From Shigella phage SSP1, in sequence record KY963424: DNA of 64,000 bases; one strand, given 5' to 3'. Below the pieces are notes generated by a model. That model saw nothing but the letters and a program-made list of their open reading frames with translations, did no database searches and had not been told where the DNA came from. Below, one piece after another: positions 36,877 to 63,474 of this stretch. Numbering within the stretch: position 1 is the stretch's first letter; each line of letters starts with the position of its first letter. Both the position numbers and the translations under genes were made by a program.

Positions 36877-37368
36877 ATGAACACTGAAATAACACAAGAC
36901 CTACTAAGAACTTACTTTGACTATAAAGATGGAGAATTGTTTTACAAACCAACTTATAAAACCCCTGCAGGAAGAATATCCAAAAAAGCAGGTAAATCCG
37001 CCAGACTAACTCCGAGTAACGGGTACTATCGTATAAATGTACCAAGAATAGGTGTACAGAAAGAACATAGGATGATTTTCCTATATCATGAAGGATACCT
37101 ACCAGAAGTAGTAGATCATATTGATAGGGATAAGGAAAATAATAGGATAGAGAACCTTAGGGCATCTAATCTTCAGGACAACGCTATTAATCGCTCCATA
37201 AGTAAGAGTAACACCTCTGGCATTGTGGGTGTCCATTATGATGAATCGTATGGTAAGTGGGTTGTAACGTATAGGGGTAAGTACTTTGGAAGATTTGATA
37301 CCAAAGAAGAAGCTGCCGAAGTTAATGCTAATGTTCGTGCCCTTGATCAAACCCGTATAAATAGTTGA
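36877..37368 (+). CDS. HNH homing endonuclease with AP2 DNA-binding domain
   Basis: VDHIDRDKENNRIENLRASNLQDNAIN (HNH) followed by GVHYDESYGKWVVTYRGKYFGRFDTKEEAA (AP2-like). Confidence 0.75.
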   Translation: MNTEITQDLLRTYFDYKDGELFYKPTYKTPAGRISKKAGKSARLTPSNGYYRINVPRIGVQKEHRMIFLYHEGYLPEVVDHIDRDKENNRIENLRASNLQDNAINRSISKSNTSGIVGVHYDESYGKWVVTYRGKYFGRFDTKEEAAEVNANVRALDQTRINS

Positions 37369-37451
37369 TTATCTAGTATCACACATCTCCCGTTAAAAGC
37401 AAGCAAATTTTTTATTTAAATGCAATATCATAGGCTTATTTAAAATTGTAG

Positions 37452-37480
37452 TTGCTTTTTACTGTATATATTGGTATAAT
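37452..37480 (+). promoter_or_regulatory. T5-type early promoter (TTGCTT-17-TATAAT)
   Basis: AAAATTGTAGTTGCTTTTTACTGTATATATTGGTATAAT. Confidence 0.6.
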
Positions 37481-37553
37481 ATATTTGTAAGTTGATAAAC
37501 AAGATCTTTTTGTTGATCCTCTGTTAGCGAAGTACACTATAGGAGTGTTATTT

Positions 37554-38306
37554 ATGGGAAAAGCACGTCAAAAAAGAGAGAACCGCAATGGTTCAAGAAA
37601 GCGTGGCAACAAATATGAGAACAACGTAATTCAGGCTGATTTTTCTAATGATTACGCTAATCCAGTTGCTAAATCCCTAGTAGGTAAAAACCGCGAGCAA
37701 AAATCATATATCAATATGATCAAGAACAACACAGTGACTGTGGGTATCGGTGAGCCAGGTACTGGTAAAACCTTTATTCCGTCCGTTCTTGCAGCTCAGG
37801 AACTCGTAGACATTCACTCAGATATTGAGCAAGTGATCCTCGTACGTCCTAATGAACCTCTAGGTAAGTCTCTTGGTATGCTTCCTGGTGATCTAGCGGA
37901 AAAGCTAGAGCCTTGGTTAGAGCCAATAGCTGATGGTATGAAATGGGCCATCGGCGATCATGCGTATAAAGGATATGTCGAACGTCAGAAAATTAAATTT
38001 TTGGCTGTCGAACATGCTCGTGGCAGAACTTTCAACAACTCCTATGTAATTGTCGATGAAGCTCAGAATATTTCCGTTGAGGCAATGATTTGTCTCCTAA
38101 CTCGTGTAGGACAAGACTGCCGTTTAATTATCTGCGGAGATATAGCTCAGAAAGACATTAAAGGTGACTCAGGTCTAGCACTCCTTATGGAAGTCTATGA
38201 AAAATACGAAAATGCCCCATTCTCAATGATCGAATTGATTGATAACGTTCGTTCTGTTGAGTCTAAAGCATTCTATGATATTTTTAAAGACATGGGGAAG
38301 GTGTAA
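37554..38306 (+). CDS. phoH: PhoH-like ATPase
   Basis: Walker A GEPGTGKT, Walker B VIVDEAQN; ATG with AGGAG RBS (ORF track starts at GTG 37545). Confidence 0.8.
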   Translation: MGKARQKRENRNGSRKRGNKYENNVIQADFSNDYANPVAKSLVGKNREQKSYINMIKNNTVTVGIGEPGTGKTFIPSVLAAQELVDIHSDIEQVILVRPNEPLGKSLGMLPGDLAEKLEPWLEPIADGMKWAIGDHAYKGYVERQKIKFLAVEHARGRTFNNSYVIVDEAQNISVEAMICLLTRVGQDCRLIICGDIAQKDIKGDSGLALLMEVYEKYENAPFSMIELIDNVRSVESKAFYDIFKDMGKV

Positions 38307-38307
38307 T

Positions 38308-38550
38308 ATGGGAAACGTCGTTCATCTGAGCCGTAAAACTAAAATACATCGTACTTCACTGAGTGCTGCTAATATGATTACACGTAAGGAAGGGGAAGAA
38401 AGTCCTAAGACAACCCTAGCGTGGAAAATTGTAACCTCAAATCCAAATAAACCATTCAATTATAACGAGTTGAGCACCTCCATAGATATTCTATTAAAAG
38501 AGGCAGCTAGAGCTAAAGTAATTGAACAAGCTAAAAAGCTAGACTGGTAA
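38308..38550 (+). CDS. Hypothetical protein (80 aa)
   Basis: ATG with GGGGAAGG RBS immediately after phoH stop. Confidence 0.45.
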   Translation: MGNVVHLSRKTKIHRTSLSAANMITRKEGEESPKTTLAWKIVTSNPNKPFNYNELSTSIDILLKEAARAKVIEQAKKLDW

Positions 38551-38671
38551 TATACAGGGCCTGGGTATGAAAATACTCGGGCCTTTTCTATCAGAAAATT
38601 TTATTTGCCTAATGACCGATAATAAAGTAGAATATTCCTTAAATCCTGATAACTATAAAAAGGAAAGCCAA

Positions 38672-41002
38672 ATGAGTCATCGCATTGAAAAAGTAATTAA
38701 ACGTGACGGTACTGTAGAAGACTTTGCTCCTGAAAAAATCAATGGTTGGGCAGAGTATGGTTGCAAAACAGTTGATGTAAGTTGGTCAGCCATTACTATG
38801 GCTGCTCAAAAAACTCTGCCTAAAGGGGTTGTAGATTCCGACACTCTGATGGATGCATTAATTAAAGCTGCTGAAAGTCTTATTAAAGATAATCCAGCAT
38901 ATGATGTGCCAGCAAAGGAATTACGTCTTGCGCAAATGCGTAAACGCCTTTATGATTCTTTCGAACCACCTTCTCTACGCTTCTTCCATGATCACATGGT
39001 TAGCGTAGGTGCATGGGAAGACATGAGTGCATGGATTACCGATGAGCAATTTGAAGCTCTGAATCAGGTTATCGACCATGATCGTGACCGTCTTTTTACT
39101 AGTGGTGGGCTGAAGCAGTTCTTTGATAAGTATTCCCGTCGTAACATAGCCACTGGTGAAATCTATGAAACTCCGCAGTTTGCCTACATGGGTATGGCAA
39201 TGGCGATGTTATCTCAACCTAACTGGACAATTCTAGATGCAATCGACCTCTACAACGCAATGTCACTCCACAAAATCAACGTTCCTACGCCGCCACTGGT
39301 TGGTCTGCGCTCTAGTGACCGTGGATTTGCTAGTTGCTGCCTCGTGGATTCCACTGACACGTTGGATTCAATCGACACCGCCGAGCACATCGTCTTCAAA
39401 ATGGTCGCAGCCAGAGCGGGAATCGGGTATCATCTTGAAAGCCGATCAATTGCTGATCCGGTGCGAAATGGGGCATTCCCGCATTCCGGAAAACTGCCAT
39501 ATTATCGACACATTGACCGCTCAGTAAAGGCCAATACTCAGCAAACTCGTGGTGGTTCTGCTACAGTGTCTTATCCGTACTTCGACCCTGAAATCATTCA
39601 ATTGATGCAGGTTAAGCAGCAACGTGCTACAGATGAGAATAAAATCGATAAGATGGATTATTCTCTGAGCTTTAACAATCTTTTGTTAAAACGTTATCTT
39701 AAAAACGAAGATATTACGCTAATGTCATACTTCTATGCTCCAGAAGTTCATGAAGCGTTTTATAGTGATGACGAGGCTAAATTTGAAGAAATCTACGTGG
39801 CAGCGGAGAAACGTGTGGCATCTCTTACAAAGATCGACCACGAAGGAAAAACAGTTCCAGCAGCTCCTAAAGTCTCTGCAAAAGAAATCCTAGATACTTG
39901 GCTACGTATCCGAATGGAAACAGGACGTATGTATGCTCATCACATCGGGGAATCTAATCGTCACGGTAACTTCCTTGATCCGATCCGTATGACAAACCTT
40001 TGTGTTGAAATTACTCAGCCTACACGCCCATTCCATCATATCACGGAACTGTATAAAACAAAAGAACAACTTGATCAAATGAAGCCGGAGGATATTGGTG
40101 AAGTATCTCTGTGTAACTTAGGTGGTGTTGTACTTGGACGCATGGAATCTCTGGCCGAGTGGGAAAAAACTTGCTACATCCTCCTGAAATTCGTTGATAC
40201 AATTATTGAAATTCAGGATTATCCGTTCCCAACTATGGAATATACGGCTAAGAAACGTCGTAATGTTGGTATTGGCCTGATGAACGCAGCAGGTGCAATG
40301 GCAGCAGAAGGTCTGGCTTATGAAGGTATTGAAGCCCGTAACTGGATTCACCGTGAGGCTGAAAAACTGTCTTACTTCCTGCATAAAGCCTCTGTACGCC
40401 TAGCTAAAGAACAGGGCGCATGTGAGTGGTTTGATCGTACTAAACCATCTAAAGGAATTCTGGTAATCGACACGTACAAGAAAACTGTTGATGAACTGGT
40501 ATCCGTAGGTCTAGAAATGGATTGGGAGTCTCTACGTGCAGATATTCTGAAATATGGTATGCGTAACTCTGTTCTGACTGCTCAGATGCCGGGAGAAAGT
40601 TCTTCTGTTCTGTTAGGTGTTACTAACTCTATCGAACCACCTCGTAAGATTGTATCTATCAAGGGTAGTGCAGTTAATAAAGTAATTGCAATTGCTCCAG
40701 GTGCAACCGATTGGGAAACGTTAATGAGCTATAAACTGGCTTATGATGTAGATCGTATCGAGTGGATCAAGTGGGTAGCAACTATGCAGAAATTCTTCAG
40801 TCAGTCTATCAGTACGAATATGTACTATGACTACACCAAGTTTGAGAATGAAATCATTCCTGGCCCAGTAGTAGTTCGTGATTTCATGACTGCTGTTAAG
40901 TATGGGTGGAAAACTTGGTATTATGCTAACTTCAATACCGCAAATGGTGGAGGTGCTGGAGAAGAAGCAGCCGGTTGTGCATCCGGCGGTTGTACTATTT
41001 AA
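38672..41002 (+). CDS. nrdA: Ribonucleoside-diphosphate reductase, alpha subunit (class Ia)
   Basis: N-terminal ATP-cone (IKRDGTVEDF), catalytic core, C-terminal CxxxxC tail; start at MSHRIEK with AAAAGGAAAG RBS. Confidence 0.9.
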   Translation: MSHRIEKVIKRDGTVEDFAPEKINGWAEYGCKTVDVSWSAITMAAQKTLPKGVVDSDTLMDALIKAAESLIKDNPAYDVPAKELRLAQMRKRLYDSFEPPSLRFFHDHMVSVGAWEDMSAWITDEQFEALNQVIDHDRDRLFTSGGLKQFFDKYSRRNIATGEIYETPQFAYMGMAMAMLSQPNWTILDAIDLYNAMSLHKINVPTPPLVGLRSSDRGFASCCLVDSTDTLDSIDTAEHIVFKMVAARAGIGYHLESRSIADPVRNGAFPHSGKLPYYRHIDRSVKANTQQTRGGSATVSYPYFDPEIIQLMQVKQQRATDENKIDKMDYSLSFNNLLLKRYLKNEDITLMSYFYAPEVHEAFYSDDEAKFEEIYVAAEKRVASLTKIDHEGKTVPAAPKVSAKEILDTWLRIRMETGRMYAHHIGESNRHGNFLDPIRMTNLCVEITQPTRPFHHITELYKTKEQLDQMKPEDIGEVSLCNLGGVVLGRMESLAEWEKTCYILLKFVDTIIEIQDYPFPTMEYTAKKRRNVGIGLMNAAGAMAAEGLAYEGIEARNWIHREAEKLSYFLHKASVRLAKEQGACEWFDRTKPSKGILVIDTYKKTVDELVSVGLEMDWESLRADILKYGMRNSVLTAQMPGESSSVLLGVTNSIEPPRKIVSIKGSAVNKVIAIAPGATDWETLMSYKLAYDVDRIEWIKWVATMQKFFSQSISTNMYYDYTKFENEIIPGPVVVRDFMTAVKYGWKTWYYANFNTANGGGAGEEAAGCASGGCTI

Positions 41003-41010
41003 TAAAAACA

Positions 41011-41038
41011 AGGAGATCTTCGGGTCTCCTTTTTCTTT
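41011..41038 (+). terminator. Intrinsic terminator after nrdA
   Basis: GGAGATC-TTCG-GGTCTCC hairpin followed by TTTTTCTTT. Confidence 0.65.
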
Positions 41039-41048
41039 GAAATTTTAC

Positions 41049-41078
41049 TTGCTAATCGCTACCAGATTTGCTATAATA
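41049..41078 (+). promoter_or_regulatory. T5-type early promoter (TTGCTA-18-TATAAT)
   Basis: AAATTTTACTTGCTAATCGCTACCAGATTTGCTATAAT. Confidence 0.6.
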
Positions 41079-41108
41079 TTCCTGAAATAGTGAGAAAGAG
41101 GAAAATCA

Positions 41109-43722: not shown

Positions 43723-44106
43723 ATGAGTAAAGAAATTGAATTAGAACAAGCCCTTCTGAATTACTCCAATTACTTGCAGGGTGATAAAGAAACTATTACT
43801 AAGGAACAGGTATTATTAATACTAGACTCTATCACTTCTAAATTCAGGACTTTAGAAGACTACTACTCTGTAGGCAATGGAGATGAGAAGGTAGAGTTAT
43901 GTCTAAATCTCCTAGAAGATATGGGTTGGGATGAGGAAGATCAAGTAGGGTATTTAGGTATATCTACAGAAATTCTAGAAAATACAGAGCATGAAAATAT
44001 ACTTGAAGTAAAGAGCAGAAGTGCTATTCGATATAATACTTATGGTACAGGTATTACAGGAATAAAAGCATTACTTAGTATAGACATAGGATGGTTAGAT
44101 GAGTAA
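43723..44106 (+). CDS. Hypothetical protein (127 aa)
   Basis: ORF with GGATAA RBS-like sequence. Confidence 0.5.
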   Translation: MSKEIELEQALLNYSNYLQGDKETITKEQVLLILDSITSKFRTLEDYYSVGNGDEKVELCLNLLEDMGWDEEDQVGYLGISTEILENTEHENILEVKSRSAIRYNTYGTGITGIKALLSIDIGWLDE

Positions 44107-44647
44107 AAAGTTACCTAGCCAAGAAAGATTAAAAGAAATACTAATCTATGATCCAGATACTGGTATATTTACTAATAAGGTAAGTCGTGGTAGGGGAGGA
44201 AAAGCAGGTTCGCCAGCTGGATACCTAAGAAAAGATGGCTATATAACTATTAAGATAGATAAAATAGATTATTTAGCGCATAGGTTAGCCTTTCTATACA
44301 TGACAGGATCAATACCTGATTTAATAGACCACAAAAATAGAATTAGGTCAGATAATAGGTGGATAAATCTAAGAGAAGCTACAAGCCAGTCTAATAACAG
44401 AAATTGTACCGCATCGAGTAAATCTGGATATCTAGGTGTACACTGGAACAAACAACTACAGAAATGGCAAGTACAGGTGATTGATAATAATGGTAAAAAT
44501 ATTTACGGGGGTGTTTTTGATTACTTAGACCTAGAAAGTGCGGTCATAAAGGCTAATGAACTAAGAAAAACACTTCATGGTAGCGAAGCAGTTATAGAAG
44601 ATTTCTATACCAACTATTACCCACCAATAGAGGAACTTAATAAGTGA
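44099..44647 (+). CDS. HNH homing endonuclease with AP2 domain
   Basis: DHKNRIRSDNRWINLREATSQSNNRN (HNH) and GVHWNKQLQKWQVQVIDNNGKNIYGGVFD (AP2-like). Confidence 0.75.
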   Translation: MSKKLPSQERLKEILIYDPDTGIFTNKVSRGRGGKAGSPAGYLRKDGYITIKIDKIDYLAHRLAFLYMTGSIPDLIDHKNRIRSDNRWINLREATSQSNNRNCTASSKSGYLGVHWNKQLQKWQVQVIDNNGKNIYGGVFDYLDLESAVIKANELRKTLHGSEAVIEDFYTNYYPPIEELNK

Positions 44648-56979: not shown

Positions 56980-57060
56980 GAGGGATTGGCTCAGTGGCGA
57001 CGGCGCCTGGCTGTAGACCGGGTATATCACGCGGAGGTTCGAGTCCTCCATCCCTCACCA
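56980..57060 (+). tRNA. tRNA-Tyr(GTA)
   Basis: Acceptor GAGGGAT/ATCCCTC perfect, anticodon arm CCTGG-CTGTAGA-CCGGG, extended variable region, T-arm GGAGG-TTCGAGT-CCTCC, CCA encoded. Confidence 0.7.
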
Positions 57061-57078: not shown

Positions 57079-57624
57079 ATGCACAATAAGTTAATAAATG
57101 AGCTTCAAAAAAGACAAATAATAACAAAAACTAAGGAGTTTGATATAACTCCAGATTTAATAGTTGAATGTTCAAAAGTTTACTTAGAATTAAGTAACAC
57201 AAAAGCTAAGAAAGTCTCTTTAGGGGATCTTAGATATAACGTTAAACTATTGTGCTTATCATTAATTAAATTTAAACAGGAAAATAAACTTGCTATAAAA
57301 GAAGGCTTCATATATTTTATAGCAAATAAGGCCTGGCCCAATTATTTTAAGATTGGTATGTCAGCTAACCCAAAGAAACGCTTAGCGAACTATCAAACAT
57401 ATAGCCCCTTTAGGGATTATACAATGCTACACTGGTCTTTCTGGTTTGATAGAAAGGAAGGTGAAAAGTTTGTCCATAGTCTCTATCATGATAGAGATCA
57501 TGAATGGGTTAAGTTGCCTCAAAGAAAACTAAATAAAATATTTGAACAAATTAATAAACTTTCTGGTTTGGAACATTTAGTACAGAAAGTTAATAGAGAA
57601 ATAGTTAATGCACCTATCGTCTAA
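57079..57624 (+). CDS. T5orf172/GIY-YIG-like domain protein (mobile-element-type)
   Basis: GFIYFIANKAWPNYFKIGMSANPKKRLANYQTYSP resembles the T5orf172 (GIY-YIG-related) signature; AT-rich codon usage; stop overlaps tRNA-Glu 5' end. Confidence 0.55.
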   Translation: MHNKLINELQKRQIITKTKEFDITPDLIVECSKVYLELSNTKAKKVSLGDLRYNVKLLCLSLIKFKQENKLAIKEGFIYFIANKAWPNYFKIGMSANPKKRLANYQTYSPFRDYTMLHWSFWFDRKEGEKFVHSLYHDRDHEWVKLPQRKLNKIFEQINKLSGLEHLVQKVNREIVNAPIV

Positions 57625-57684
57625 TGGTTAGGACATCAGGATTTCAATCTGAGAATCGGAGTTCAATTCTCCGTGGGTGTACCA
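57610..57684 (+). tRNA. tRNA-Glu(TTC)
   Basis: Acceptor GCACCTA/TGGGTGT (two G-U), D-stem GTC/GAC, anticodon arm TCAGG-ATTTCAA-TCTGA, T-arm CGGAG-TTCAATT-CTCCG, CCA encoded. Confidence 0.75.
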
Positions 57685-57850: not shown

Positions 57851-57852
57851 AT

Positions 57853-58603: not shown

Positions 58604-58665
58604 ATGGCTTAGGCGAAGGATTGCAAATCCTTTTTATGTGAGTTCAAATCTCATGCGGTCGTCCA
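58590..58665 (+). tRNA. tRNA-Cys(GCA)
   Basis: Acceptor CGACCGT/GCGGTCG, anticodon arm AAGGA-TTGCAAA-TCCTT, T-arm GTGAG-TTCAAAT-CTCAT, CCA encoded. Confidence 0.75.
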
Positions 58666-58667
58666 AT

Positions 58668-58808
58668 TTGCTGAAAGAATTGTTAAATCAATTCAGGCAC
58701 GCGTAGGAACACTGTCTCCGCAATTGAAAGATGAGGCACGGTTTGGAGAGGTATGCCGCTACACGCTACGGTGCTAACTCCGTCTAGGTGAAAATCCTAG
58801 TCAGCAAT
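58668..58808 (+). ncRNA. 141-nt tRNA-like structured RNA (perfect 7-bp terminal stem, T-arm-positioned hairpin, long insertion)
   Basis: 5' TTGCTGA pairs perfectly with 3' TCAGCAA; hairpin CTAGG-TGAAAAT-CCTAG immediately precedes the 3' strand; no ORF. Confidence 0.35.
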
Positions 58809-58817
58809 ATAAATTTA

Positions 58818-58900
58818 GGGTCGTTAGCCAAGCGGTTTGGCGGTGGACTGTTAATCCATGTCGAAAGACAACGTAGGTTCGAATCCTACACGGCCCGCCA
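58818..58900 (+). tRNA. tRNA with Asn-type anticodon arm (GTT) but extended 13-nt variable arm
   Basis: Acceptor GGGTCGT/ACGGCCC, D-stem GCC/GGC, anticodon arm GTGGA-CTGTTAA-TCCAT (close to the E. coli tRNA-Asn arm as recalled), variable GTCGAAAGACAAC, T-arm GTAGG-TTCGAAT-CCTAC, CCA encoded. Confidence 0.6.
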
Positions 58901-59002
58901 AATTCTGTGTAGAGTTAAGTAAACCGGTAGCCAACCAGCTATCATTGCTGATATCGAATTCAGCCACAGATACCATTTTCATTAATAACTGAGGAAACAA
59001 GC

Positions 59003-59188
59003 ATGTCCAAGAATGTAATTGCACAGTTAGAAGTTCATCGTGATAGCACTATCAACAATATTGAAGTTGAGAAGAAATACATAGAAGAACTTAAACACGA
59101 TATACTAGTAAGTCTCAATCGTCTTAATGTACGAAAAGAGTTTCTTAAAGAACTTAATGCAGCTATTGAAAAACTCAAAGCTGAGTAA
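59003..59188 (+). CDS. Hypothetical coiled-coil protein (61 aa)
   Basis: GAGGAAACAAGCATG RBS. Confidence 0.45.
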   Translation: MSKNVIAQLEVHRDSTINNIEVEKKYIEELKHDILVSLNRLNVRKEFLKELNAAIEKLKAE

Positions 59189-59195
59189 ATGAATT

Positions 59196-59777
59196 ATGCA
59201 CGGAATATTTTTACCTATTCCTATGTTTGATGAATATCTGGTAAGTCTAGATGGGTTAGTGTTCAGTATTAAATCAAATAAAATACTAACCCCAATAACT
59301 AGTAATTATGGATATGTATCTGTACGCCTACATCATAACGGTAGGCAAAGAAATACTGGTATACATAGAATCATAGCATGTGCCTTTAAAAGGTTACCTA
59401 GTTTAGACTCTGTACTAGAGGTTGATCATATTGATACAGATATCACCTATTGGGGATTAAATAATCTACAAGTCCTTACTAAAGAACAGCATTTAGAAAA
59501 AACCCTGAAAGATAAGGGCTATAATAAACTAATACATAATAAACAGTGTAGTATATGTGGTGAACCTATATCACTGAAAGCAGATAAGTGTCAAAAATGC
59601 TCATCACATAAACTGAAAGATCCATCTATTACTAAAGAAATAATAGAATCTACTGTAAAAGAGTTAGGATGGTCTGGTGCTGGAAGAAGATTATCTTATT
59701 CTGATAACGGGTTAAGAAAACGTTATAAAGCATTAGGTGGTGATCCAAAAGAATTAAAAAAGTTAAAGGTACTATAG
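59196..59777 (+). CDS. HNH homing endonuclease (NUMOD4-like N-terminus + HNH)
   Basis: IHRIIACAF...EVDHIDTDITYWGLNNLQVLTKEQHLEKT HNH core; paralog of 62914..63474 with shared C-terminal SGAGRRLSYSDNGLRKRYKALGG; stop overlaps tRNA-Asp. Confidence 0.7.
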   Translation: MHGIFLPIPMFDEYLVSLDGLVFSIKSNKILTPITSNYGYVSVRLHHNGRQRNTGIHRIIACAFKRLPSLDSVLEVDHIDTDITYWGLNNLQVLTKEQHLEKTLKDKGYNKLIHNKQCSICGEPISLKADKCQKCSSHKLKDPSITKEIIESTVKELGWSGAGRRLSYSDNGLRKRYKALGGDPKELKKLKVL

Positions 59778-59842
59778 TCTAACGGTTAGGATACTCCCCT
59801 GTCACGGGAGAGGTAGGGTTTCGATTACCCTTAGTACCGCCA
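59768..59842 (+). tRNA. tRNA-Asp(GTC)
   Basis: Acceptor GGTACTA/TAGTACC perfect, anticodon arm CTCCC-CTGTCAC-GGGAG, T-arm AGGGT-TTCGATT-ACCCT, CCA encoded. Confidence 0.8.
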
Positions 59843-59868
59843 AACTAAACTAGCACGAGAAATATGCT

Positions 59869-60216
59869 ATGATTAATGCTAAAGAAGAATTGTTACTTGC
59901 CCTAAAGAATATTAATTCTGAAGTTAAGTGTATTAAGATAGAATTCGGTTATTATGGGGACAAAGAAGTTTGGGTATTACCCATAGGTTATACAGAAAAA
60001 GATATTGAAGATTTTCTAAATAATCTAGACTTTAAATATGATTCTGGTTTCGGTGGACAATTGCTTTATGGTAACGTATGGTTTACTGATGGAACTTGGT
60101 TAGAACGTGGTGAATATGATGGTTCTGAATGGTGGGAATATAAGACTACACCGGCAATCCCAGAAGAATGCCGAACAATTAATGGTGAAGTAGATAATAC
60201 TTTACGGTTAAACTAA
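59869..60216 (+). CDS. Hypothetical protein (115 aa)
   Basis: ORF with Trp/Gly-rich C-terminus. Confidence 0.5.
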   Translation: MINAKEELLLALKNINSEVKCIKIEFGYYGDKEVWVLPIGYTEKDIEDFLNNLDFKYDSGFGGQLLYGNVWFTDGTWLERGEYDGSEWWEYKTTPAIPEECRTINGEVDNTLRLN

Positions 60217-60220
60217 TAAA

Positions 60221-60329
60221 ATTTCAGTGCAGAACACGGAGCTAGCAATTCGGAAGTGCTGACTCATGATAAGCTGCCTATGTACTTGCTAAGCGGTCGT
60301 GTCCAAGACTCGGACTCTTGCACTGAAAA
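60221..60329 (+). ncRNA. Structured RNA candidate closed by about 11-bp terminal stem
   Basis: TTTCAGTGCAG (60222-60232) is complementary to CTTGCACTGAAA (60317-60328); internal hairpin GTCC-AAGACTC-GGAC; no ORF. Confidence 0.35.
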
Positions 60330-60338
60330 CAATCAAAC

Positions 60339-60459
60339 ATTCTAGCGTGGTTGATGGAGAAACCAGCTTGGCGAGGGCAGAAGCTCGTTCGATTCGAGTG
60401 AAAGAATGGTTCTCGTAAGTCCGCACAAGTGATAACAGGTTCGAGTCCTGTCTAGAATG
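60339..60459 (+). ncRNA. 121-nt tRNA-like RNA (perfect acceptor stem + canonical T-arm, oversized body)
   Basis: 5' ATTCTAG pairs with 3' CTAGAAT; T-arm ACAGG-TTCGAGT-CCTGT; second internal T-arm-like hairpin GCTCG-TTCGATT-CGAGT; no CCA encoded. Confidence 0.4.
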
Positions 60460-60469
60460 ACACTATAAA

Positions 60470-60592
60470 GTTTACTTATTATGTAGGTTCCGATAGATCG
60501 GCGGGTCTATTCTGGCATTTAAGAGAGGTCTCGCAAACTTCTTTGTCAGCCGTGGGGTTCATAGCCTCCAGGTGGCCTACACAATAAGTAAA
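60470..60592 (+). ncRNA. Structured RNA candidate closed by 14-bp terminal stem
   Basis: ACTTATTATGTAGG (60474-60487) pairs with CCTACACAATAAGT (60576-60589) with one mismatch; internal palindromes; no ORF. Confidence 0.35.
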
Positions 60593-60608
60593 TTTATTAA
60601 AAATTCAT

Positions 60609-60638
60609 TTGCTATTCTGCTTTATTATCTGTATAATA
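60609..60638 (+). promoter_or_regulatory. T5-type early promoter (TTGCTA-18-TATAAT)
   Basis: AAAAATTCATTTGCTATTCTGCTTTATTATCTGTATAAT. Confidence 0.6.
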
Positions 60639-60669
60639 TATTTTATAAAGTGAAGAGAAGGAAAGCTAA

Positions 60670-60867
60670 ATGAAGAAAGTTTTATTACTATCTGTATTCC
60701 TACTTACTGGTTGTTTTAAATTTGACTCAACCATTAATAAAGAGTATGAATTTGCTAAAAATTTCTGTGGCGGAGAGAGTAATATAAAGAATTTCTACAT
60801 ATATAGTACAATTCCTAGTACCGTTTATTGTGTAGACGGACGAATTATTAATATTCCTCCACAATAA
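60670..60867 (+). CDS. Small lipoprotein (65 aa)
   Basis: MKKVLLLSVFLLTGC lipoprotein signal peptide with lipobox LTGC; GAGAAGGAAAGCTAAATG RBS. Confidence 0.55.
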   Translation: MKKVLLLSVFLLTGCFKFDSTINKEYEFAKNFCGGESNIKNFYIYSTIPSTVYCVDGRIINIPPQ

Positions 60868-60876
60868 AAGAATTAA

Positions 60877-60952
60877 CAGTGCGTAGCGCAGTTGGTAGCG
60901 TGGGAGCCTTGGATGCTTCGGGTCGCAGGTTCGAGTCCTGCCGCACTGACCA
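60877..60952 (+). tRNA. tRNA-Pro(TGG)
   Basis: Acceptor CAGTGCG/CGCACTG perfect, D-stem GCGC/GCGT, anticodon arm GGAGC-CTTGGAT-GCTTC, T-arm GCAGG-TTCGAGT-CCTGC, CCA encoded. Confidence 0.8.
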
Positions 60953-60958
60953 AACAAT

Positions 60959-61036
60959 TGCGGGTTAGATCTCTGGTAGAGATCACTAGTCTCATAAGCT
61001 AGAAAGAGGTAGGTTCGATTCCTGCACCCGCTTCCA
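60959..61036 (+). tRNA. tRNA with CAT anticodon (second Met/Ile2-type), unpaired 1-72
   Basis: D-stem GATC/GATC, anticodon arm CTAGT-CTCATAA-GCTAG, T-arm GTAGG-TTCGATT-CCTGC, CCA encoded; acceptor TGCGGGT/ACCCGCT with T-T at 1-72. Confidence 0.6.
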
Positions 61037-61056
61037 TTTTAATAGAGGATTTCGAA

Positions 61057-61224
61057 ATGAAAGTATTTCGATTAGTAGTAAGTGACAAACGTTCAGGTAA
61101 AAATACCTCAAAATCCTTACTCGCTCATTATGGTAAAAATTGGGATGAAGTAATGTCAGAGTTTAATACTAATCACCCTTACTTGAAAGTTCACTCTATT
61201 AAAGAAGTATATAATGGTTACTAA
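61057..61224 (+). CDS. Hypothetical small protein (55 aa)
   Basis: TAGAGGATTTCGAAATG RBS; below ORF-track cut-off. Confidence 0.35.
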   Translation: MKVFRLVVSDKRSGKNTSKSLLAHYGKNWDEVMSEFNTNHPYLKVHSIKEVYNGY

Positions 61225-61225
61225 T

Positions 61226-61304
61226 AGATCGCTAGCTCAATAGGTTTAGTAGCATCCGACTTTTAATCGGAAGGTTCTGGGTTCGAGTCCCAGGCGATCT
61301 ACCA
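61226..61304 (+). tRNA. tRNA-Lys(TTT)
   Basis: Acceptor AGATCGC/GCGATCT perfect, anticodon arm TCCGA-CTTTTAA-TCGGA, T-arm CTGGG-TTCGAGT-CCCAG, CCA encoded. Confidence 0.8.
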
Positions 61305-61323
61305 ATTTCAAGAAAAATGTACT

Positions 61324-61351
61324 TGCTTGATGCTTAATTTCTTGTTATAAT
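61324..61351 (+). promoter_or_regulatory. T5-type early promoter (TTGCTT-16-TATAAT)
   Basis: AAAAATGTACTTGCTTGATGCTTAATTTCTTGTTATAAT + ATATAAATTGATGGGGAG. Confidence 0.55.
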
Positions 61352-61589
61352 ATTTATATAAATTGATGGGGAGAAATCCTCATCATAGTTCACTAAGGTA
61401 TTAGCTCGACCTAGGACTGGCTGCCAAAAAGCACGATCCCTACGATTCGGGAGAAGTTCTAGATTAGTCCACTAGATTCAGTGGCAACTGAGTAGTGTAT
61501 CGGGTTTGCGAGATGACGCGGTTCCTTCCGCTTGAAGCGAAGGTGCTGTAGTTACGCCGAGCTAATAGCCTTAGTAAACTAAAGAATTT

Positions 61590-61663
61590 GGGGATATAGT
61601 TTAATGGTAGAACATCTGCTTTGCACGCAGAAGACGAGGGTTCAACTCCCTCTTTCTCCACCA
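61590..61663 (+). tRNA. tRNA-Ala(TGC)
   Basis: Acceptor GGGGATA/TTTCTCC (one mismatch), anticodon arm TCTGC-TTTGCAC-GCAGA, T-arm GAGGG-TTCAACT-CCCTC, CCA encoded. Confidence 0.7.
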
Positions 61664-61668
61664 AATTT

Positions 61669-61753
61669 GGGGCTATGCTGGAACTGGTAGACAATACGGC
61701 CTTAGATTCCGTAGCTTAAATGCGTGGGAGTTCGAGTCTCCCTAGCCCCACCA
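61669..61753 (+). tRNA. tRNA-Leu(TAG), type II
   Basis: Acceptor GGGGCTA/TAGCCCC perfect, D-loop with GGTAGAC, anticodon loop CTTAGAT, 13-nt variable arm, T-arm GGGAG-TTCGAGT-CTCCC, CCA encoded. Confidence 0.75.
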
Positions 61754-61865
61754 AATTTGATGGTCAGAGTAAAATAAACCTACTATCTCGGTTGAGCTGT
61801 TTTAATGGGTTCGAATCCCAGCGAGGCGTAACTGCCTGGTGTGATAGAGGCATCATCTTATTATT

Positions 61866-61956
61866 GGAAGAGCAAATCGAATTGGCGACGAAAACCGCTT
61901 GGAAAGTGGCTGACTGGTAAAACGGCTTGAGAGTTCAAATCTCTCCTCTTCCGCCA
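61866..61956 (+). tRNA. tRNA-Ser(GGA), type II
   Basis: Acceptor GGAAGAG/CTCTTCC perfect, anticodon loop TTGGAAA, long variable arm, T-arm GAGAG-TTCAAAT-CTCTC, CCA encoded; D region irregular. Confidence 0.6.
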
Positions 61957-61978
61957 AACAATTTATATGGTAGGTCAA

Positions 61979-62073
61979 TCCAACGGCTGGCGCTGGACTC
62001 CGACTTGAAATCGGTTGATCGTAGTGATACGGTGTAAGGGTTCGATCCCCTTACCTACCTCCAAATCTTGAAG
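61979..62073 (+). tRNA. tRNA-Ser(TGA), type II
   Basis: Acceptor GGTAGGT/ACCTACC perfect, anticodon arm CCGA-CTTGAAA-TCGG, long variable arm, T-arm AAGGG-TTCGATC-CCCTT, CCA encoded. Confidence 0.7.
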
Positions 62074-62439
62074 TATGCCGGAATCGGTAGACGGGGCTGC
62101 CTAAAAGGTTTATAGGGAACATCCACTCCCTGCAATATACCTCATAAAGCGGCTGAGATAAATGGTCTATCTCGTGAAGGTTCAAGTCCTTCTACTTCTT
62201 GATATATCAATGGCTCAAAGTGTAACGGTGCTATTTGATGCGCTTGGAAAGACTTCCCCGACATGCGTTCGGGAGTAAGCTACTAAGGCTAGAGTAGAAG
62301 AGTTTCGGAGAGCCGCCACAATTGAAAATTCGTACTCGTCTTGAGCTGCGTGCAATAGGAGATAACTTGATTAGTATTCTAGAACATGCTAATTGAGGAA
62401 GGTTTCGCTAACCCTGCGAGTTTTCAATTGTGGCTATAT
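62074..62439 (+). ncRNA. ORF-less segment with degenerate tRNA-like pieces and a 14-bp long-range stem
   Basis: T-arm GAAGG-TTCAAGT-CCTTC without matching acceptor; ...GAGAGCC-G-CCA 3'-end-like motif at 62308-62318; GCCACAATTGAAAA (62314-62327) is the exact reverse complement of TTTTCAATTGTGGC (62431-62444). Confidence 0.3.
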
Positions 62440-62516
62440 CATAATTGGTTAATGATCCTGATTGTGAATCAGGCCTATGTGGATTCGAATTCCACTAGCC
62501 ACCCCAAATTAACTTA
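62440..62516 (+). tRNA. tRNA-His(GTG)
   Basis: Acceptor GTGGCTA/TAGCCAC perfect, D-stem TCAT/ATGA, anticodon arm CCTGA-TTGTGAA-TCAGG, T-arm GTGGA-TTCGAAT-TCCAC, CCA encoded. Confidence 0.8.
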
Positions 62517-62531
62517 AATAGGAAATAAAAT

Positions 62532-62732
62532 ATGGCTGATTTCTGCAAACAATGCTCCATTGATATGTGGGGCAGAGATACTGGTGATCTTTCTGGTTTG
62601 ATTACAGAAGCTGAAGTTAAAGAAGGCTACGGTGCTGTTGTGATTTGCGAAGGATGCGGAGTTATTCGAGTAGATCATGAAGGCAAACGTTTAGAAGATC
62701 CAGAACCAATCGCCACGGTTCCTGTAGAATAA
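62532..62732 (+). CDS. Small zinc-ribbon-like protein (66 aa)
   Basis: CKQC...CEGC two CxxC pairs; AATAGGAAATAAAATATG RBS. Confidence 0.45.
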   Translation: MADFCKQCSIDMWGRDTGDLSGLITEAEVKEGYGAVVICEGCGVIRVDHEGKRLEDPEPIATVPVE

Positions 62733-62739
62733 AAATTAT

Positions 62740-62815
62740 TGGGATGTAGATCAATTGGCAGATCGTCGGCCTCTGACTCCGAAGGTTCCACGTTCGATCC
62801 GTGGCATCCCAGCCA
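62740..62815 (+). tRNA. tRNA-Gln(CTG)
   Basis: Acceptor TGGGATG/CATCCCA perfect, D-stem GATC/GATC, anticodon loop CTCTGAC, T-arm CCACG-TTCGATC-CGTGG, CCA encoded. Confidence 0.7.
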
Positions 62816-62821
62816 AATAAT

Positions 62822-62897
62822 TGGAGAGTAGTGTAACGGTTAGCACAACGGCCTTTGACTCCGTTAATGGTAGGTTCGATTCCTCCTTCTCCAGCCA
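62822..62897 (+). tRNA. tRNA-Gln(TTG)
   Basis: Acceptor TGGAGAG/TTCTCCA, D-stem GTG/CAC, anticodon loop CTTTGAC, T-loop TTCGATT, CCA encoded; near-duplicate of the CTG isoacceptor. Confidence 0.7.
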
Positions 62898-62913
62898 AAA
62901 TAAATAAAGTATT

Positions 62914-63474
62914 ATGAAAATAATTCCTGAATTTCCAAACTATAGTATAACTGAGGATGGTAAGGTATGGTCTAAAAATATTAATGCATTTTTATCTCCA
63001 TATGTTAATAACTCAGGATACCCATGCTATAAACTCCACAAGAATGGTATTCAGTACACACAGTCTATCCATAGATTACTTGCTAGAGTGTATAAGGGTT
63101 TACCTTCACTAGACTCTGAACTAGAGGTAGATCATAAAGATACCGATCCTTCTAATTATAGTTTAGATAATATACAAGTTCTAAGTAAAGAAGAACACTT
63201 GAAGAAAACCCTTCAAGATAGGAAACAGTTGCCTTATAATACTATTTGCCCACTTTGCTCAGGCTACAAAGATCCTGGTGCTTCTAAGTGTAAGAAATGT
63301 TCTTCTTTATCACAAGTAAAAGATAAATCTGTTACCGTAGAACAGATCGAATACTGGGTTAAAAACTATTCTTGGGTAAGAGCTGGAAAGGAATTAGGTT
63401 ATTCAGATAGTGGATTACGTAAACGTTATAAAGCTCTTACTGGTAAAGACCCTAAACAAATAAAATGCGGTTAG
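62914..63474 (+). CDS. HNH homing endonuclease (NUMOD4-like N-terminus + HNH)
   Basis: EFPNYSITEDGKVWS; IHRLLARVY...EVDHKDTDPSNYSLDNIQVLSKEEHLKKT; paralog of 59196..59777; stop overlaps tRNA-Gly. Confidence 0.7.
   Translation: MKIIPEFPNYSITEDGKVWSKNINAFLSPYVNNSGYPCYKLHKNGIQYTQSIHRLLARVYKGLPSLDSELEVDHKDTDPSNYSLDNIQVLSKEEHLKKTLQDRKQLPYNTICPLCSGYKDPGASKCKKCSSLSQVKDKSVTVEQIEYWVKNYSWVRAGKELGYSDSGLRKRYKALTGKDPKQIKCG

What the first reader, a model, noticed from the sequence alone, without database searches (positions are those of the whole stretch)
36877..63474. Five homing-endonuclease-type ORFs, including a paralogous HNH pair that invades the tRNA cluster
There are two HNH-AP2 genes (36877..37368, 44099..44647), two NUMOD4/HNH genes (59196..59777, 62914..63474) sharing a near-identical C-terminal tail, and a T5orf172/GIY-YIG-like gene (57079..57624). 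Three of them end a few nucleotides inside the 5' end of a tRNA gene (Asp, Gly, Glu). This is the insertion pattern of free-standing homing endonucleases and probably explains the patchy, degenerate tRNA content nearby.
Basis: partly seen in the sequence, partly recalled or inferred. Interest (0 to 1): 0.4.

Follow-up and report, generated by a model that had tools for sequence, protein, structure and literature searches.

The report
Mobile nuclease genes in T5-like phage
This stretch of a T5-like phage genome carries five selfish "homing endonuclease" genes that most related phages lack at the same spots; three sit directly against tRNA genes and travel with their own version of that tRNA, a known kind of element seen here in useful detail.

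Summary
All five ORFs exist at the stated coordinates, and three end 15, 10 and 8 nt inside tRNA-Glu, tRNA-Asp and tRNA-Gly. ORF1, ORF2 and ORF5 are clear HNH proteins, and ORF4 is their homologue. ORF3 is a T5orf172 protein with a GIY-YIG-type fold. ORF4 and ORF5 belong to the family of T5's characterised F-TflI/II/IV endonucleases. Two refinements. First, these are cassette replacements, not clean insertions. ORF4 comes with a different tRNA-Asp allele (6 of 6 genomes with the gene, 0 of 10 without), ORF5 with a hybrid tRNA-Gly, and ORF3 with different tRNA-Tyr and tRNA-Glu. Second, ending inside the next tRNA is a general rule in 17 T5-like tRNA regions, for both nuclease families. The genes are under purifying selection (dN/dS 0.03-0.19). 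This is a new member of a well-known kind, of modest interest.

The parts
36754..37368 (+). ORF1 cassette. It holds a 163-aa HNH (AP2-like C-terminus) endonuclease gene (36877-37368) with its own upstream promoter-like TTGACA...TATAAGAT and RBS. It lies in the divergent nrdD-phoH intergenic region and replaces about 94 bp of the empty alleles.
   Evidence: ORF. HNH_3 49.7 bits. Breakpoints 36753/36782 and 37366, and the alignment with T5, fp01 and PH204. Present in 10 of 442 records. 99% identical in phage X5.
43705..44649 (+). ORF2 cassette. It holds a 127-aa ORF of unknown function (43723-44106, phrog_26840) and a 182-aa HNH (AP2-like) endonuclease (44099-44647) between thy and rnh. The ORF2 stop overlaps a GTG start of rnh.
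   Evidence: The 945 bp replace 64 bp in T5, or a 301-bp segment with an unrelated 93-aa ORF in PH204, SP33 and X5. Present in 34 of 436 records.
56980..57060 (+). tRNA-Tyr(GTA), the variant allele on the left side of ORF3. It is 60-65% identical to the other three tRNA-Tyr alleles in the sample.
   Evidence: 49.0 bits.
57079..57624 (+). ORF3, a 181-aa T5orf172 / GIY-YIG-type endonuclease. Its last 15 nt, including the TAA stop, lie inside tRNA-Glu.
57610..57684 (+). tRNA-Glu(TTC), the variant allele downstream of ORF3. It is 58% identical to the T5-type allele. Homology to HE-less genomes resumes right after its 3' end.
   Evidence: 56.9 bits. The same allele is also found without the HE in 3 genomes.
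59196..59777 (+). ORF4, a 193-aa F-Tfl-family HNH endonuclease with an N-terminal NUMOD4-like domain, an HNH domain, a CxxC...CxxC zinc finger and a C-terminal HTH-like tail. It starts at the ATG that directly precedes tRNA-Asp in empty alleles. Its TAG stop is tRNA-Asp positions 8-10.
   Evidence: No record reaches 80% coverage at DNA level. 56 records carry orthologues at 80-90% aa identity and none at 90% or above. dN/dS 0.06 with dS about 1.8.
59768..59842 (+). tRNA-Asp(GTC), the HE-linked allele. It is 66% identical to the allele of HE-less genomes and shares only the anticodon arm with it. It is 100% identical in all six genomes that have an ORF4-type gene.
   Evidence: 63.1 bits.
62914..63474 (+). 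ORF5, a 186-aa F-Tfl-family HNH endonuclease. It is 49% identical to T5 F-TflII and 50% to ORF4. It sits in the 7-nt spacer between tRNA-Gln(TTG) and tRNA-Gly. Its TAG stop is tRNA-Gly positions 6-8.
   Evidence: Matches I-HmuI (1U3E), E=0.007, residues 9-93. Present in 3 of 442 records. 99.5% identical in PH204.
63467..63538 (+). tRNA-Gly(TCC), a hybrid allele. The 5' half (D-arm and anticodon stem, to about 63511) is unique to ORF5-carrying genomes. The 3' half is identical to the T5-type allele.
   Evidence: 39.0 bits. 2 of 2 HE+ genomes carry it and 0 of 14 HE- genomes do.
63539..63939 (+). Flank downstream of the ORF5 cassette, shared with PH204. It is 100% identical over the 300 bp tested, against 92% or less in every other genome, so it is a probable co-conversion tract.
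   Evidence: (H241).

Best explanation
The window comes from a T5-like phage (Demerecviridae) and carries five free-standing homing endonuclease genes of three kinds:
- two HNH enzymes with an AP2-like tail (ORF1, ORF2) in the nucleotide-metabolism block;
- one T5orf172/GIY-YIG enzyme (ORF3) in the tRNA cluster;
- two members of the T5 F-TflI/II/IV HNH family (ORF4, ORF5) in the tRNA cluster.

Shown here: each is an optional cassette that most relatives lack at that exact site, and the genes are intact and under purifying selection. In the tRNA cluster each nuclease gene abuts the next tRNA gene so closely that its stop codon lies inside the tRNA. Each also travels with its own version of that tRNA: a wholly different tRNA-Asp, a hybrid tRNA-Gly, and different tRNA-Tyr and tRNA-Glu.

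Inferred mechanism: during co-infection the nuclease cuts the HE-less allele of a related phage at or near the tRNA junction. Repair from the HE-carrying genome copies in the nuclease gene together with the linked tRNA sequence. That linked sequence differs enough not to be a target, and the crossover sometimes falls inside the tRNA, which produces hybrids. Because the ORFs sit inside tRNA transcription units, with no good promoter of their own directly upstream, and end inside a tRNA, 5' processing of that tRNA should cut the mRNA before its stop codon and keep nuclease levels low. This was proposed earlier for T4 SegB and for the T5 F-Tfl enzymes.
For: Identity of the genome.

Nuclease domains.

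Homology to experimentally characterised T5 F-TflI/II/IV: 34-49% identity over nearly full length for F-TflI and II, with invariant H78, N90 and H99, four zinc-finger cysteines and the C-terminal motif.

Presence/absence: 10/442, 34/436, 13/456, 0/459 and 3/442 records. T5 is empty at all five sites.

Exact junctions.

Stop codon inside or at the next tRNA in about 10-11 of 12 independent site/family combinations across 17 regions plus L010:
- Glu -15 and -10
- Asp -10
- Gly -8
- Asn -24
- Ser-gga -14
- Gln-ctg -23
- Lys-ttt -10 (twice, once for each nuclease family)
- Ser-gct 0
- Pro -30

Allele linkage:
- tRNA-Asp: 6/6 against 0/10.
- tRNA-Gly: 2/2 against 0/14.
- tRNA-Asn with T5.069: 2/2 against 0/12.
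- The Gln pair with F-TflII.
- Hybrid tRNA-Gly here and hybrid tRNA-Lys in PH204.

Co-converted flank shared with PH204.

Purifying selection: dN/dS 0.06 for ORF4 and 0.03-0.19 for ORF3.

Low GC: 30-37.6% against 39.4% for the window.

No strong promoter-like site directly upstream of ORF3, ORF4 or ORF5.

Precedent: T4 SegB cleaves inside tRNA genes and spreads with neighbouring tRNA genes. Processing at the tRNA next to the HE stop codon was proposed to limit its expression, and the same was proposed for the F-Tfl enzymes (PMC2330249). HE genes are the main differences between T5-like genomes (PMC10644984). T5orf172 and HNH-AP2 HEGs sit near nrd genes and at exchange boundaries (PMC10448857).
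Against: - No cleavage or cross data exist for these five proteins, so targets and immunity of the linked tRNA alleles are inferred.
- The linkage counts come from 17 related genomes and are not phylogenetically independent.
- tRNA-Glu linkage is imperfect: the HE-type allele occurs without an HE in 3 genomes, and a different T5orf172 gene sits next to the T5-type allele in GreteKellenberger.
- tRNA-Pro (4 alleles) and tRNA-Ala (5 alleles) vary with no adjacent HE in the sample, so the tRNA region is mosaic for other reasons too.
- HNH-AP2 genes abutting tRNA-Ser(GCT) in polluks and atrejo leave that tRNA unchanged.
- ORF4 scores below the Pfam cut-off for HNH_3.
Confidence: 0.8

Rival explanations
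1. Passive passengers. The five ORFs are, or were, nuclease genes, but their patchy distribution reflects ordinary homologous recombination in a generally mosaic, non-essential region. On this view there is no nuclease-driven homing today, and the tRNA allele linkage is just physical proximity.
For: tRNA-Pro and tRNA-Ala have 4-5 alleles with no HE next to them, and tRNA-Glu linkage is imperfect. ORF4 differs by dS of about 1.8 from its orthologues, so it is not a recent arrival from any sampled donor.
Against: Strong purifying selection on ORF3 and ORF4 (dN/dS 0.03-0.19). Conserved catalytic residues. No decayed copies in the window. Cassette edges coincide exactly with the ORF start and the tRNA. 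The same architecture recurs at about 10 different tRNA genes for two unrelated nuclease families. Relatives F-TflI/II/IV are active site-specific endonucleases (PMC2330249).
Confidence: 0.1
2. Beneficial cassettes. The payload that matters is the tRNA variant, for example one that escapes host tRNA-cleaving defences. The nuclease serves mainly as the vehicle, or as a weapon against co-infecting phages, so the elements are kept by selection on the phage rather than as pure parasites.
For: T5 tRNAs counter retron and PARIS defences (PMC11555353, PMC11464382). The HE-linked tRNA-Asp is 100% conserved across six genomes while the HE gene has diverged to 77% nt identity. The HE genes are under strong purifying selection.
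Against: For tRNA-Asp the two alleles share exactly the anticodon arm and differ elsewhere. That is not where escape from anticodon-loop nucleases would be expected. The elements are rare, in 0-8% of relatives. That fits poorly with a general benefit. No defence assay exists for these alleles.
Confidence: 0.08
3. Core phage enzymes. The HNH proteins carry out a conserved T5 function, such as making the site-specific nicks of T5 DNA or degrading host DNA.
For: T5 DNA has sequence-specific nicks, annotated in AY543070. I-HmuI-type HNH enzymes are nickases (established knowledge; one search shows the homology).
Against: Each ORF is absent from 92-100% of T5-like genomes, including T5 itself. A conserved function cannot depend on them.
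Confidence: 0.02

Closest known systems
T5 F-TflI (hegC), F-TflII (hegD) and F-TflIV (hegA): HNH site-specific endonucleases in the T5 tRNA gene region (Akulenko et al. 2004, PMID 15456135, as cited in PMC2330249 and PMC10644984)
   Same: ORF4 and ORF5 are 38-49% identical to F-TflI and F-TflII over nearly their full length, and 34-45% to F-TflIV over the C-terminal two-thirds. They share the same HNH residues, CxxC...CxxC finger and C-terminal SDxGLRKRY motif. They lie in the same tRNA cluster. Like F-TflI and F-TflII, they end inside the next tRNA gene.
   Different: They occupy different sites (before tRNA-Asp and tRNA-Gly rather than tRNA-Ser2 and tRNA-Gln2), and T5 is empty at those sites. 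Activity is not tested. The window's ORF4 is at most 82.6% identical to any protein encoded in the phage collection.
T4 SegB: a free-standing GIY-YIG homing endonuclease in the T4 tRNA cluster (PMC2330249)
   Same: It is a free-standing HE inside a phage tRNA gene cluster. It cleaves within tRNA genes of HE-less relatives and is inherited together with neighbouring tRNA genes. The end of its ORF coincides with a tRNA processing site, which was proposed to limit expression. This is the closest mechanistic model for ORF3, ORF4 and ORF5.
   Different: It comes from a different phage family and, for ORF4 and ORF5, a different nuclease family. In SegB processing falls between the last sense codon and the stop codon, whereas here the stop codon lies 8-15 nt inside the tRNA.
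T5orf172-family and HNH-AP2 ('IPA-HNH') homing endonuclease genes of ICP1, T5-like and other phages (Barth, Dunham and Seed 2023, PMC10448857)
   Same: ORF3 has the T5orf172 domain. ORF1 and ORF2 have HNH plus an AP2-like C-terminus. Their location next to nrd and thy genes, and at boundaries of exchanged segments, matches that paper's general findings.
   Different: 87% of the T5orf172 HEGs in that survey carry Zn-finger DNA-binding domains. ORF3 instead has a roughly 70-residue three-helix N-terminal domain and no cysteine pairs. The AP2 hits of ORF1 and ORF2 are below the Pfam cut-off.
T5.069 of phage T5 (annotated 'hypothetical protein' in T5 and 'putative GIY-YIG nuclease family protein' in JLBYU40)
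   Same: It is 50% identical to ORF3 over 165 aa. It ends 24 nt inside tRNA-Asn and is linked to a distinct tRNA-Asn allele.
   Different: It occupies a different site, between tRNA-Cys and tRNA-Asn, which is empty in the window.
I-HmuI (PDB 1U3E), the intron-encoded HNH nicking homing endonuclease of Bacillus phage SPO1
   Same: It is the only solved structure found by sequence for ORF5 (E=0.007, residues 9-93, covering the N-terminal and HNH domains).
   Different: It is intron-encoded rather than free-standing. The similarity is weak, and the middle and C-terminal parts are different.

Membership tests
Free-standing homing endonuclease gene (functional class) | Encodes a nuclease domain of a family used by homing endonucleases | tested here: met
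   HNH_3 is above cut-off for ORF1, ORF2 and ORF5. T5orf172 and MUG113 are above cut-off for ORF3. ORF4 is below cut-off (16.3 against 24.8) but is 50% identical to ORF5 with conserved H78, N90 and H99.
Free-standing homing endonuclease gene (functional class) | Sporadic presence at one locus among close relatives, with empty-site alleles | tested here: met
   10/442, 34/436, 13/456, 0/459 and 3/442 records are occupied. Empty alleles in T5, X5, fp01, SP33 and PH204 were mapped to the nucleotide.
Free-standing homing endonuclease gene (functional class) | Co-conversion of flanking markers with the HE gene | tested here: met
   tRNA-Asp, tRNA-Tyr and tRNA-Glu alleles and the 5' half of tRNA-Gly move with the HE. 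The 300 bp downstream of ORF5 are 100% identical to PH204 against 92% or less elsewhere. This is comparative evidence, not a cross.
Free-standing homing endonuclease gene (functional class) | Site-specific cleavage of the HE-less allele, and biased inheritance in mixed infection | not testable with these tools
   This needs protein expression with cleavage assays, and phage crosses.
T5 F-Tfl HNH family (F-TflI/II/IV) | Full-length sequence homology, including HNH, the CxxC...CxxC finger and the C-terminal SDxGLRKRY helix-turn-helix-like tail | tested here: met
   ORF5 against F-TflII: 49% over 184 aa, E=4e-61. ORF4 against F-TflII: 42% over 186 aa, E=2e-42. There are 30 invariant columns in the five-way alignment.
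T5 F-Tfl HNH family (F-TflI/II/IV) | Location inside the tRNA gene cluster, immediately 5' of a tRNA | tested here: met
GIY-YIG superfamily / T5orf172 (ORF3) | Pfam domain above the curated cut-off | tested here: met
   T5orf172 36.3 bits against 20, and MUG113 38.4 bits against 22.3.
GIY-YIG superfamily / T5orf172 (ORF3) | GIY-YIG fold | tested here: met
GIY-YIG superfamily / T5orf172 (ORF3) | Conserved catalytic Tyr, Arg and Glu residues | tested here: inconclusive
   G76-F-x-Y79, K91-I-G93, R101, E129 and E142 are invariant in 10 homologues. Their equivalence to the catalytic residues of I-TevI was not established by a structural superposition.
HNH-AP2 homing endonucleases (ORF1, ORF2) | AP2 DNA-binding domain C-terminal to the HNH domain | tested here: inconclusive
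   AP2 hits are at the right place but below cut-off: ORF1 21.3 bits and ORF2 15.1 bits against 33.3. ORF2 residues 108-161 match a Plasmodium AP2 structure, 3IGM, at E=0.26.
NUMOD4-containing HNH endonucleases (ORF4, ORF5) | NUMOD4 motif at the N-terminus | tested here: inconclusive
   ORF4 scores 23.1 bits against a cut-off of 23.4. ORF5 has no hit. The ORF5 N-terminus aligns with the N-terminal domain of I-HmuI.

The most novel reading that the evidence does not exclude
In T5-like phages, nuclease genes of two unrelated families have converged on one design: a two-part cassette of a nuclease gene plus a cognate, cleavage-immune tRNA allele, with the stop codon deliberately placed inside the tRNA. 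RNase P processing would then turn the mRNA into a non-stop message, giving built-in dose control. On this reading, competition between such cassettes, each keyed to a different tRNA gene, is the main driver of tRNA allele turnover and of hybrid or pseudo-tRNAs in the cluster. It could also spread tRNA variants that matter for escape from host tRNA-targeting defences.
Probability: 0.3. Interest if true: 0.5.

Novelty: new member of a known kind. Interest (0 to 1): 0.3.

Why it matters
This does not change how we understand phage homing endonucleases, but it is a clean and well-replicated natural example. One genome has five optional nuclease cassettes. Empty sites are known to the nucleotide in the classic phage T5, so the predicted targets can be tested directly with T5 DNA.

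Two points may interest specialists:
- Both HNH and T5orf172 nuclease genes in T5-like tRNA clusters almost always terminate inside the next tRNA gene.
- The nuclease is tightly and anciently paired with a specific tRNA allele. tRNA-Asp is 100% conserved while the nuclease gene has diverged to 77% identity.

Both fit ideas put forward for T4 SegB and, only in passing, for T5. Here they become countable. They also suggest that nuclease-driven exchange is one source of hybrid tRNAs in phage tRNA clusters. That is relevant now that T5 tRNAs are known to counter bacterial defences.

On the practical side, the ORF3 and ORF5 homologues are left unannotated in at least two GenBank records, probably because they overlap tRNA genes.

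Tried and rejected
- ARAGORN-based allele tables missed the T5-type tRNA-Gly in seven genomes and tRNA-Asn in mar004NP2. I redid the Gly slot by position.
- The first BLAST script assumed one file per locus and mislabelled hits. I repeated it with subject ids.
- Pairwise MAFFT for allele clustering timed out. I replaced it with an in-process aligner.
- The viral-contig scan with the F-Tfl alignment returned only 20 loci. That was too few for statistics but enough to show further tRNA-abutting paralogues.
- I looked for decayed HE fragments in the window that could tie missing tRNAs to past HE occupancy. There were none at E<1e-3.
- I looked for promoter-like sites directly upstream of ORF3, ORF4 and ORF5. 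None was of good quality, and promoter-like sites are not enriched in the region (21 found against 28 expected).
- I considered and rejected the idea that the HNH proteins are T5's conserved nicking enzymes, because they are absent from T5 and from most relatives.
- I considered the idea that variant tRNAs are anti-defence payloads. I kept it only as a low-probability rival, because the tRNA-Asp alleles share the anticodon arm.


Full report
**What the window is.** Megablast of 36000-46000 and 54600-64000 against 50,697 phage records hits 540-605 records, almost all of them Salmonella, Escherichia or Klebsiella T5-like phages (Demerecviridae) at 80-99% identity. No record covers more than 83% of the tRNA region. 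Coverage of the nrd region comes in steps of about 95%, 89% and 84%, which already suggests 500-bp optional segments. The richly annotated T5 record AY543070 gives the gene map. The order is nrdD, phoH, nrdA, nrdB, frd, thy and rnh, followed by early genes and then the tRNA cluster.

**Checking the observation.** All five ORFs are in the mechanical ORF list at exactly the stated coordinates. ARAGORN finds 18 tRNA genes. tRNA-Glu starts at 57610, tRNA-Asp at 59768 and tRNA-Gly at 63467. ORF3 (ends 57624), ORF4 (ends 59777) and ORF5 (ends 63474) therefore overlap them by 15, 10 and 8 nt.

Pfam results:

| ORF | Hits (bits, curated cut-off in brackets) |
|---|---|
| ORF1 | HNH_3 49.7 (24.8); AP2 21.3 (33.3) |
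| ORF2 | HNH_3 51.4 (24.8); AP2 15.1 (33.3) |
| ORF3 | T5orf172 36.3 (20); MUG113 38.4 (22.3) |
| ORF4 | NUMOD4 23.1 (23.4); HNH_3 16.3 (24.8) |
| ORF5 | HNH_3 30.1 (24.8) |

PHROGs puts ORF1 and ORF2 in phrog_99 and ORF4 and ORF5 in phrog_59, both named HNH endonuclease. ORF3 falls in phrog_5032, which has no named function. ORF4 and ORF5 are 50% identical, and ORF1 and ORF2 are 35% identical. The 'near-identical tail' is a 13-residue core (12 of 13 identical) that T5 F-TflI, II and IV also carry.

I searched each ORF with about 600 bp of flank on each side. The table counts records in which one place covers at least 80% of the query, out of all records matched.

| ORF | Records with ORF and both flanks | Records matched |
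|---|---|---|
| ORF1 | 10 | 442 |
| ORF2 | 34 | 436 |
| ORF3 | 13 | 456 |
| ORF4 | 0 | 459 |
| ORF5 | 3 | 442 |

For ORF4 the best record covers 78% at 87% identity. Most records have both flanks joined across a much shorter span. At protein level, 56 records encode an ORF4 orthologue at 80-90% identity and none at 90% or above, and 103 more carry paralogues below 60%. T5 itself is empty at all five sites, while it carries its own HE genes (hegA, hegC, hegD, hegH, hegI and T5.069) at other sites.

**Anatomy of the junctions.**
- ORF1: 612 bp (36754-37365) replace about 94 bp of the divergent nrdD-phoH intergenic region. The segment brings a promoter-like TTGACA...TATAAGAT and an RBS, and its right edge is the ORF1 stop codon.
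- ORF2: 945 bp (43705-44649) hold a 127-aa ORF of unknown function (phrog_26840) and the HNH gene. They replace 64 bp in T5, or 301 bp with an unrelated 93-aa ORF in PH204, SP33 and X5. The ORF2 stop overlaps a GTG start of rnh, where the empty alleles have ATG.
- ORF4: it starts at the very ATG that precedes tRNA-Asp in empty alleles. The tRNA-Asp that follows is a different gene copy. Its acceptor, D and T arms all differ, and only the anticodon arm is shared (66% identity). Homology to HE-less genomes resumes right after its 3' end.
- ORF5: it sits in the 7-nt spacer between tRNA-Gln(TTG) and tRNA-Gly. The tRNA-Gly 5' half is unique and its 3' half is identical to the T5-type allele, so the crossover lies inside the gene near 63512.
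- ORF3: it lies between tRNA-Tyr and tRNA-Glu, which are separated by a 6-nt spacer in T5. Both flanking tRNAs are alleles only about 58-65% identical to the T5-type ones.

These are cassette replacements rather than simple insertions.

**Generality.** I fetched 15 further T5-like tRNA regions from both Tequintavirus and Epseptimavirus. In each I located HE-type ORFs by BLASTP and tRNAs by ARAGORN. Almost every HE ORF inside a tRNA cluster ends inside, or exactly at, the next tRNA:

| Next tRNA | tRNA start relative to end of ORF stop codon (nt; negative = overlap) | HE type |
|---|---|---|
| Glu | -15 | ORF3 type |
| Glu | -10 | a 44%-identical paralogue in GreteKellenberger |
| Asp | -10 | ORF4 type |
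| Gly | -8 | ORF5 type |
| Asn | -24 | T5.069 |
| Ser-GGA | -14 | F-TflI |
| Gln-CTG | -23 | F-TflII |
| Lys-TTT | -10 | an HNH in PH204, and a T5orf172 in atrejo |
| Ser-GCT | 0 | HNH-AP2 in polluks and atrejo |
| Pro | -30 | an HNH in metagenomic locus L010 |

The clear exception is F-TflIV. The stop codons are supplied by tRNA sequence, for example the conserved U8-A9-G10, which reads TAG. Two unrelated nuclease families therefore share this arrangement at about ten different tRNA genes.

**Linkage of HE and tRNA allele.**
- tRNA-Asp: the window-type allele is in 6 of 6 genomes with an ORF4-type gene and 0 of 10 without, across both genera.
- tRNA-Gly: the hybrid allele is in 2 of 2 genomes with ORF5 and 0 of 14 without.
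- tRNA-Asn: a distinct allele is in 2 of 2 genomes with T5.069 and 0 of 12 without.
- The T5-type tRNA-Gln(CTG) and tRNA-Gln(TTG) alleles go with F-TflII in T5, fp01 and Cit2. They also occur in DT571/2, which lacks the gene.
- tRNA-Glu is imperfect. The window allele is in five HE+ genomes and three HE- genomes.
- Controls cut both ways. tRNA-His has a single allele in 16 genomes. tRNA-Pro has four alleles and tRNA-Ala five, with no HE next to them in this sample. The tRNA region is therefore mosaic beyond the HE sites.
- In PH204 the tRNA-Lys after an HNH paralogue has only its first five nucleotides swapped (GGGTT for AGATC). Its acceptor stem stays paired through G-U wobbles. This is direct evidence that cassette ends fall inside tRNA genes and create hybrids.

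**Age and selection.**
- ORF5 is 99.5% identical to its PH204 copy. The next 300 bp are 100% identical, against 92% or less in all other genomes. This looks like a recent transfer with a co-converted flank.
- ORF3 is 95-98% identical in SP33, Cit2, faergetype and an S124-like contig.
- ORF4 is only about 77% identical in nucleotides to its five orthologues, yet the linked tRNA-Asp is 100% identical in all six genomes, and the outer flanks are 96-98% identical to HE-less Tequintavirus genomes.
- Nei-Gojobori estimates give dN/dS of 0.06 for ORF4 (dS about 1.8) and 0.03-0.19 for ORF3. The proteins are being maintained, not decaying.
- The five ORFs have 30-37.6% GC, against 39.4% for the window and 40-43% for the neighbouring nrd, thy and phoH genes.

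**Nuclease identity.** ORF4 and ORF5 align over nearly their full length with F-TflI and F-TflII, and over the HNH-to-C-terminus part with F-TflIV. Invariant positions include H78, N90 and H99, four cysteines of a CxxC...CxxC finger, and the C-terminal motif. ORF5 matches the N-terminal and HNH domains of I-HmuI (1U3E, E=0.007).

**The tRNA content.** Rfam recovers all 18 tRNAs. It also finds one that ARAGORN missed (55385-55459, the homologue of T5 tRNA-Ile2), a sub-threshold tRNA-Ser-like element (61969-62059), and a tRNA cut by the window end (checked). The HE-adjacent tRNAs all score well above the family cut-off. No HE remnants are present anywhere in the window. 'Degenerate tRNA content caused by HEs' is therefore not shown for this window. 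HE-driven allele replacement and hybrid formation are shown.

**Mechanism.** Shown here:
- the cassettes are optional;
- their junctions are exact;
- tRNA alleles are linked to them;
- hybrid tRNAs exist;
- the genes are under purifying selection.

Inferred, by analogy with T4 SegB and the T5 F-Tfl enzymes:
- the nucleases cut HE-less alleles at or near the tRNA junction during co-infection;
- repair copies in the nuclease gene together with the adjacent tRNA sequence.

SegB cleaves inside tRNA genes of HE-less phages, recognises the T-psi-C motif, and is inherited with neighbouring tRNA genes (PMC2330249).

ORF3, ORF4 and ORF5 have no good promoter-like site directly upstream, lie within tRNA transcription units, and end inside a tRNA. 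5' processing of that tRNA should therefore remove the stop codon and limit expression. The SegB paper proposes exactly this for SegB and, citing a personal communication, for the F-Tfl enzymes.

**Novelty.**
- HE genes are already described as the main source of differences between T5-like genomes (PMC10644984; PMC12639943).
- T5orf172 and HNH-AP2 HEGs are known to be enriched in T5-like phages, to sit near nrd genes, and to lie at boundaries of genetic exchange (PMC10448857).

The finding is therefore a correct identification of new members of a known kind. What is added here is countable evidence for the rule that the stop codon lies inside the next tRNA, evidence for tight HE-tRNA allele pairing, and a set of directly testable target sites in T5 DNA.

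**Rivals.**
- Passive recombination of inactive genes is unlikely, given the purifying selection, the exact junctions and the recurrence of the same architecture.
- A benefit through the tRNA payload is possible, since T5 tRNAs counter retron and PARIS defences. It is not favoured, because the tRNA-Asp alleles share the anticodon arm and the elements are rare.
- A conserved core function is excluded by the distribution.

Noticed in passing
window 55385-55459 (+): A tRNA gene (Rfam tRNA 40.3 bits, above the cut-off of 29) that ARAGORN did not report. It is the homologue of T5 tRNA-Ile2(CAU), but the window copy ends ...GGGGAGCCA where T5 continues ...GCCACCA.
   Followed up: partly
window 61969-62059 (+): A tRNA-Ser(UGA)-like element, found only as a sub-threshold Rfam tRNA-Sec hit (38.3 against 47) and not called by ARAGORN. 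It lies in the slot where T5 has F-TflI, tRNA-Ser2 and tRNA-Ser1. Whether it is a working type-II tRNA or a degenerate copy is open.
   Followed up: partly
window 44644-45120 (+): The RNase H gene starts with GTG, overlapping the ORF2 stop codon (GTGA). HE-less alleles (T5, PH204) start with ATG after an intergenic spacer. This suggests translational coupling of rnh to the HNH gene in occupied alleles.
   Followed up: no
window 43723-44106 (+): A 127-aa acidic ORF (phrog_26840, no Pfam hit) always accompanies ORF2 in the cassette (window and fp01). It is replaced by an unrelated 93-aa ORF (phrog_5321) in PH204, SP33 and X5, and by nothing in T5, so there are three alleles at one site.
   Followed up: partly
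L004 22483-23028 (SP33, OR862218) and L005 27666-28226 (PH204, OR492254): The ORF3 and ORF5 homologues are intact but not annotated in these GenBank records. In PH204 the tRNA genes are also annotated on the wrong strand relative to the surrounding genes.
   Followed up: no
L005 about 25498-25576 (PH204 tRNA-Lys(TTT)): This tRNA lies downstream of an HNH paralogue. Its first five nucleotides are swapped to the T5-type sequence (GGGTT for AGATC), and its acceptor stem is kept only through G-U wobble pairs. It is a natural hybrid tRNA at an HE cassette edge.
   Followed up: yes
L001 37893-37968 and the same slot in X5, fp01, SP33, JLBYU40, Cit2 and HASG4: ARAGORN does not recognise the T5-type tRNA-Gly(UCC) allele in seven genomes, although the T5 record states that it can be converted into an efficient suppressor. 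It has an unusual D-arm region.
   Followed up: partly
L031 8811-9050 (DT571/2): This genome has the F-TflII-linked tRNA-Gln(CTG) and tRNA-Gln(TTG) alleles but no F-TflII gene, and the T5.062 homologue runs into tRNA-Gln. It may be an example of HE loss that leaves the linked tRNA alleles behind.
   Followed up: no
window 59196-59777 against L006, L026, L027, L030 and L032: The window's ORF4 is an old, separate lineage of this HNH gene, with dS of about 1.8 and at most 82.6% aa identity to anything in the phage collection. Tequintavirus HZ_ZJUN2 carries the same ORF4 variant as the Epseptimavirus genomes (83% aa to the window's ORF4, like atrejo and faergetype), which may point to transfer between the two genera.
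   Followed up: partly
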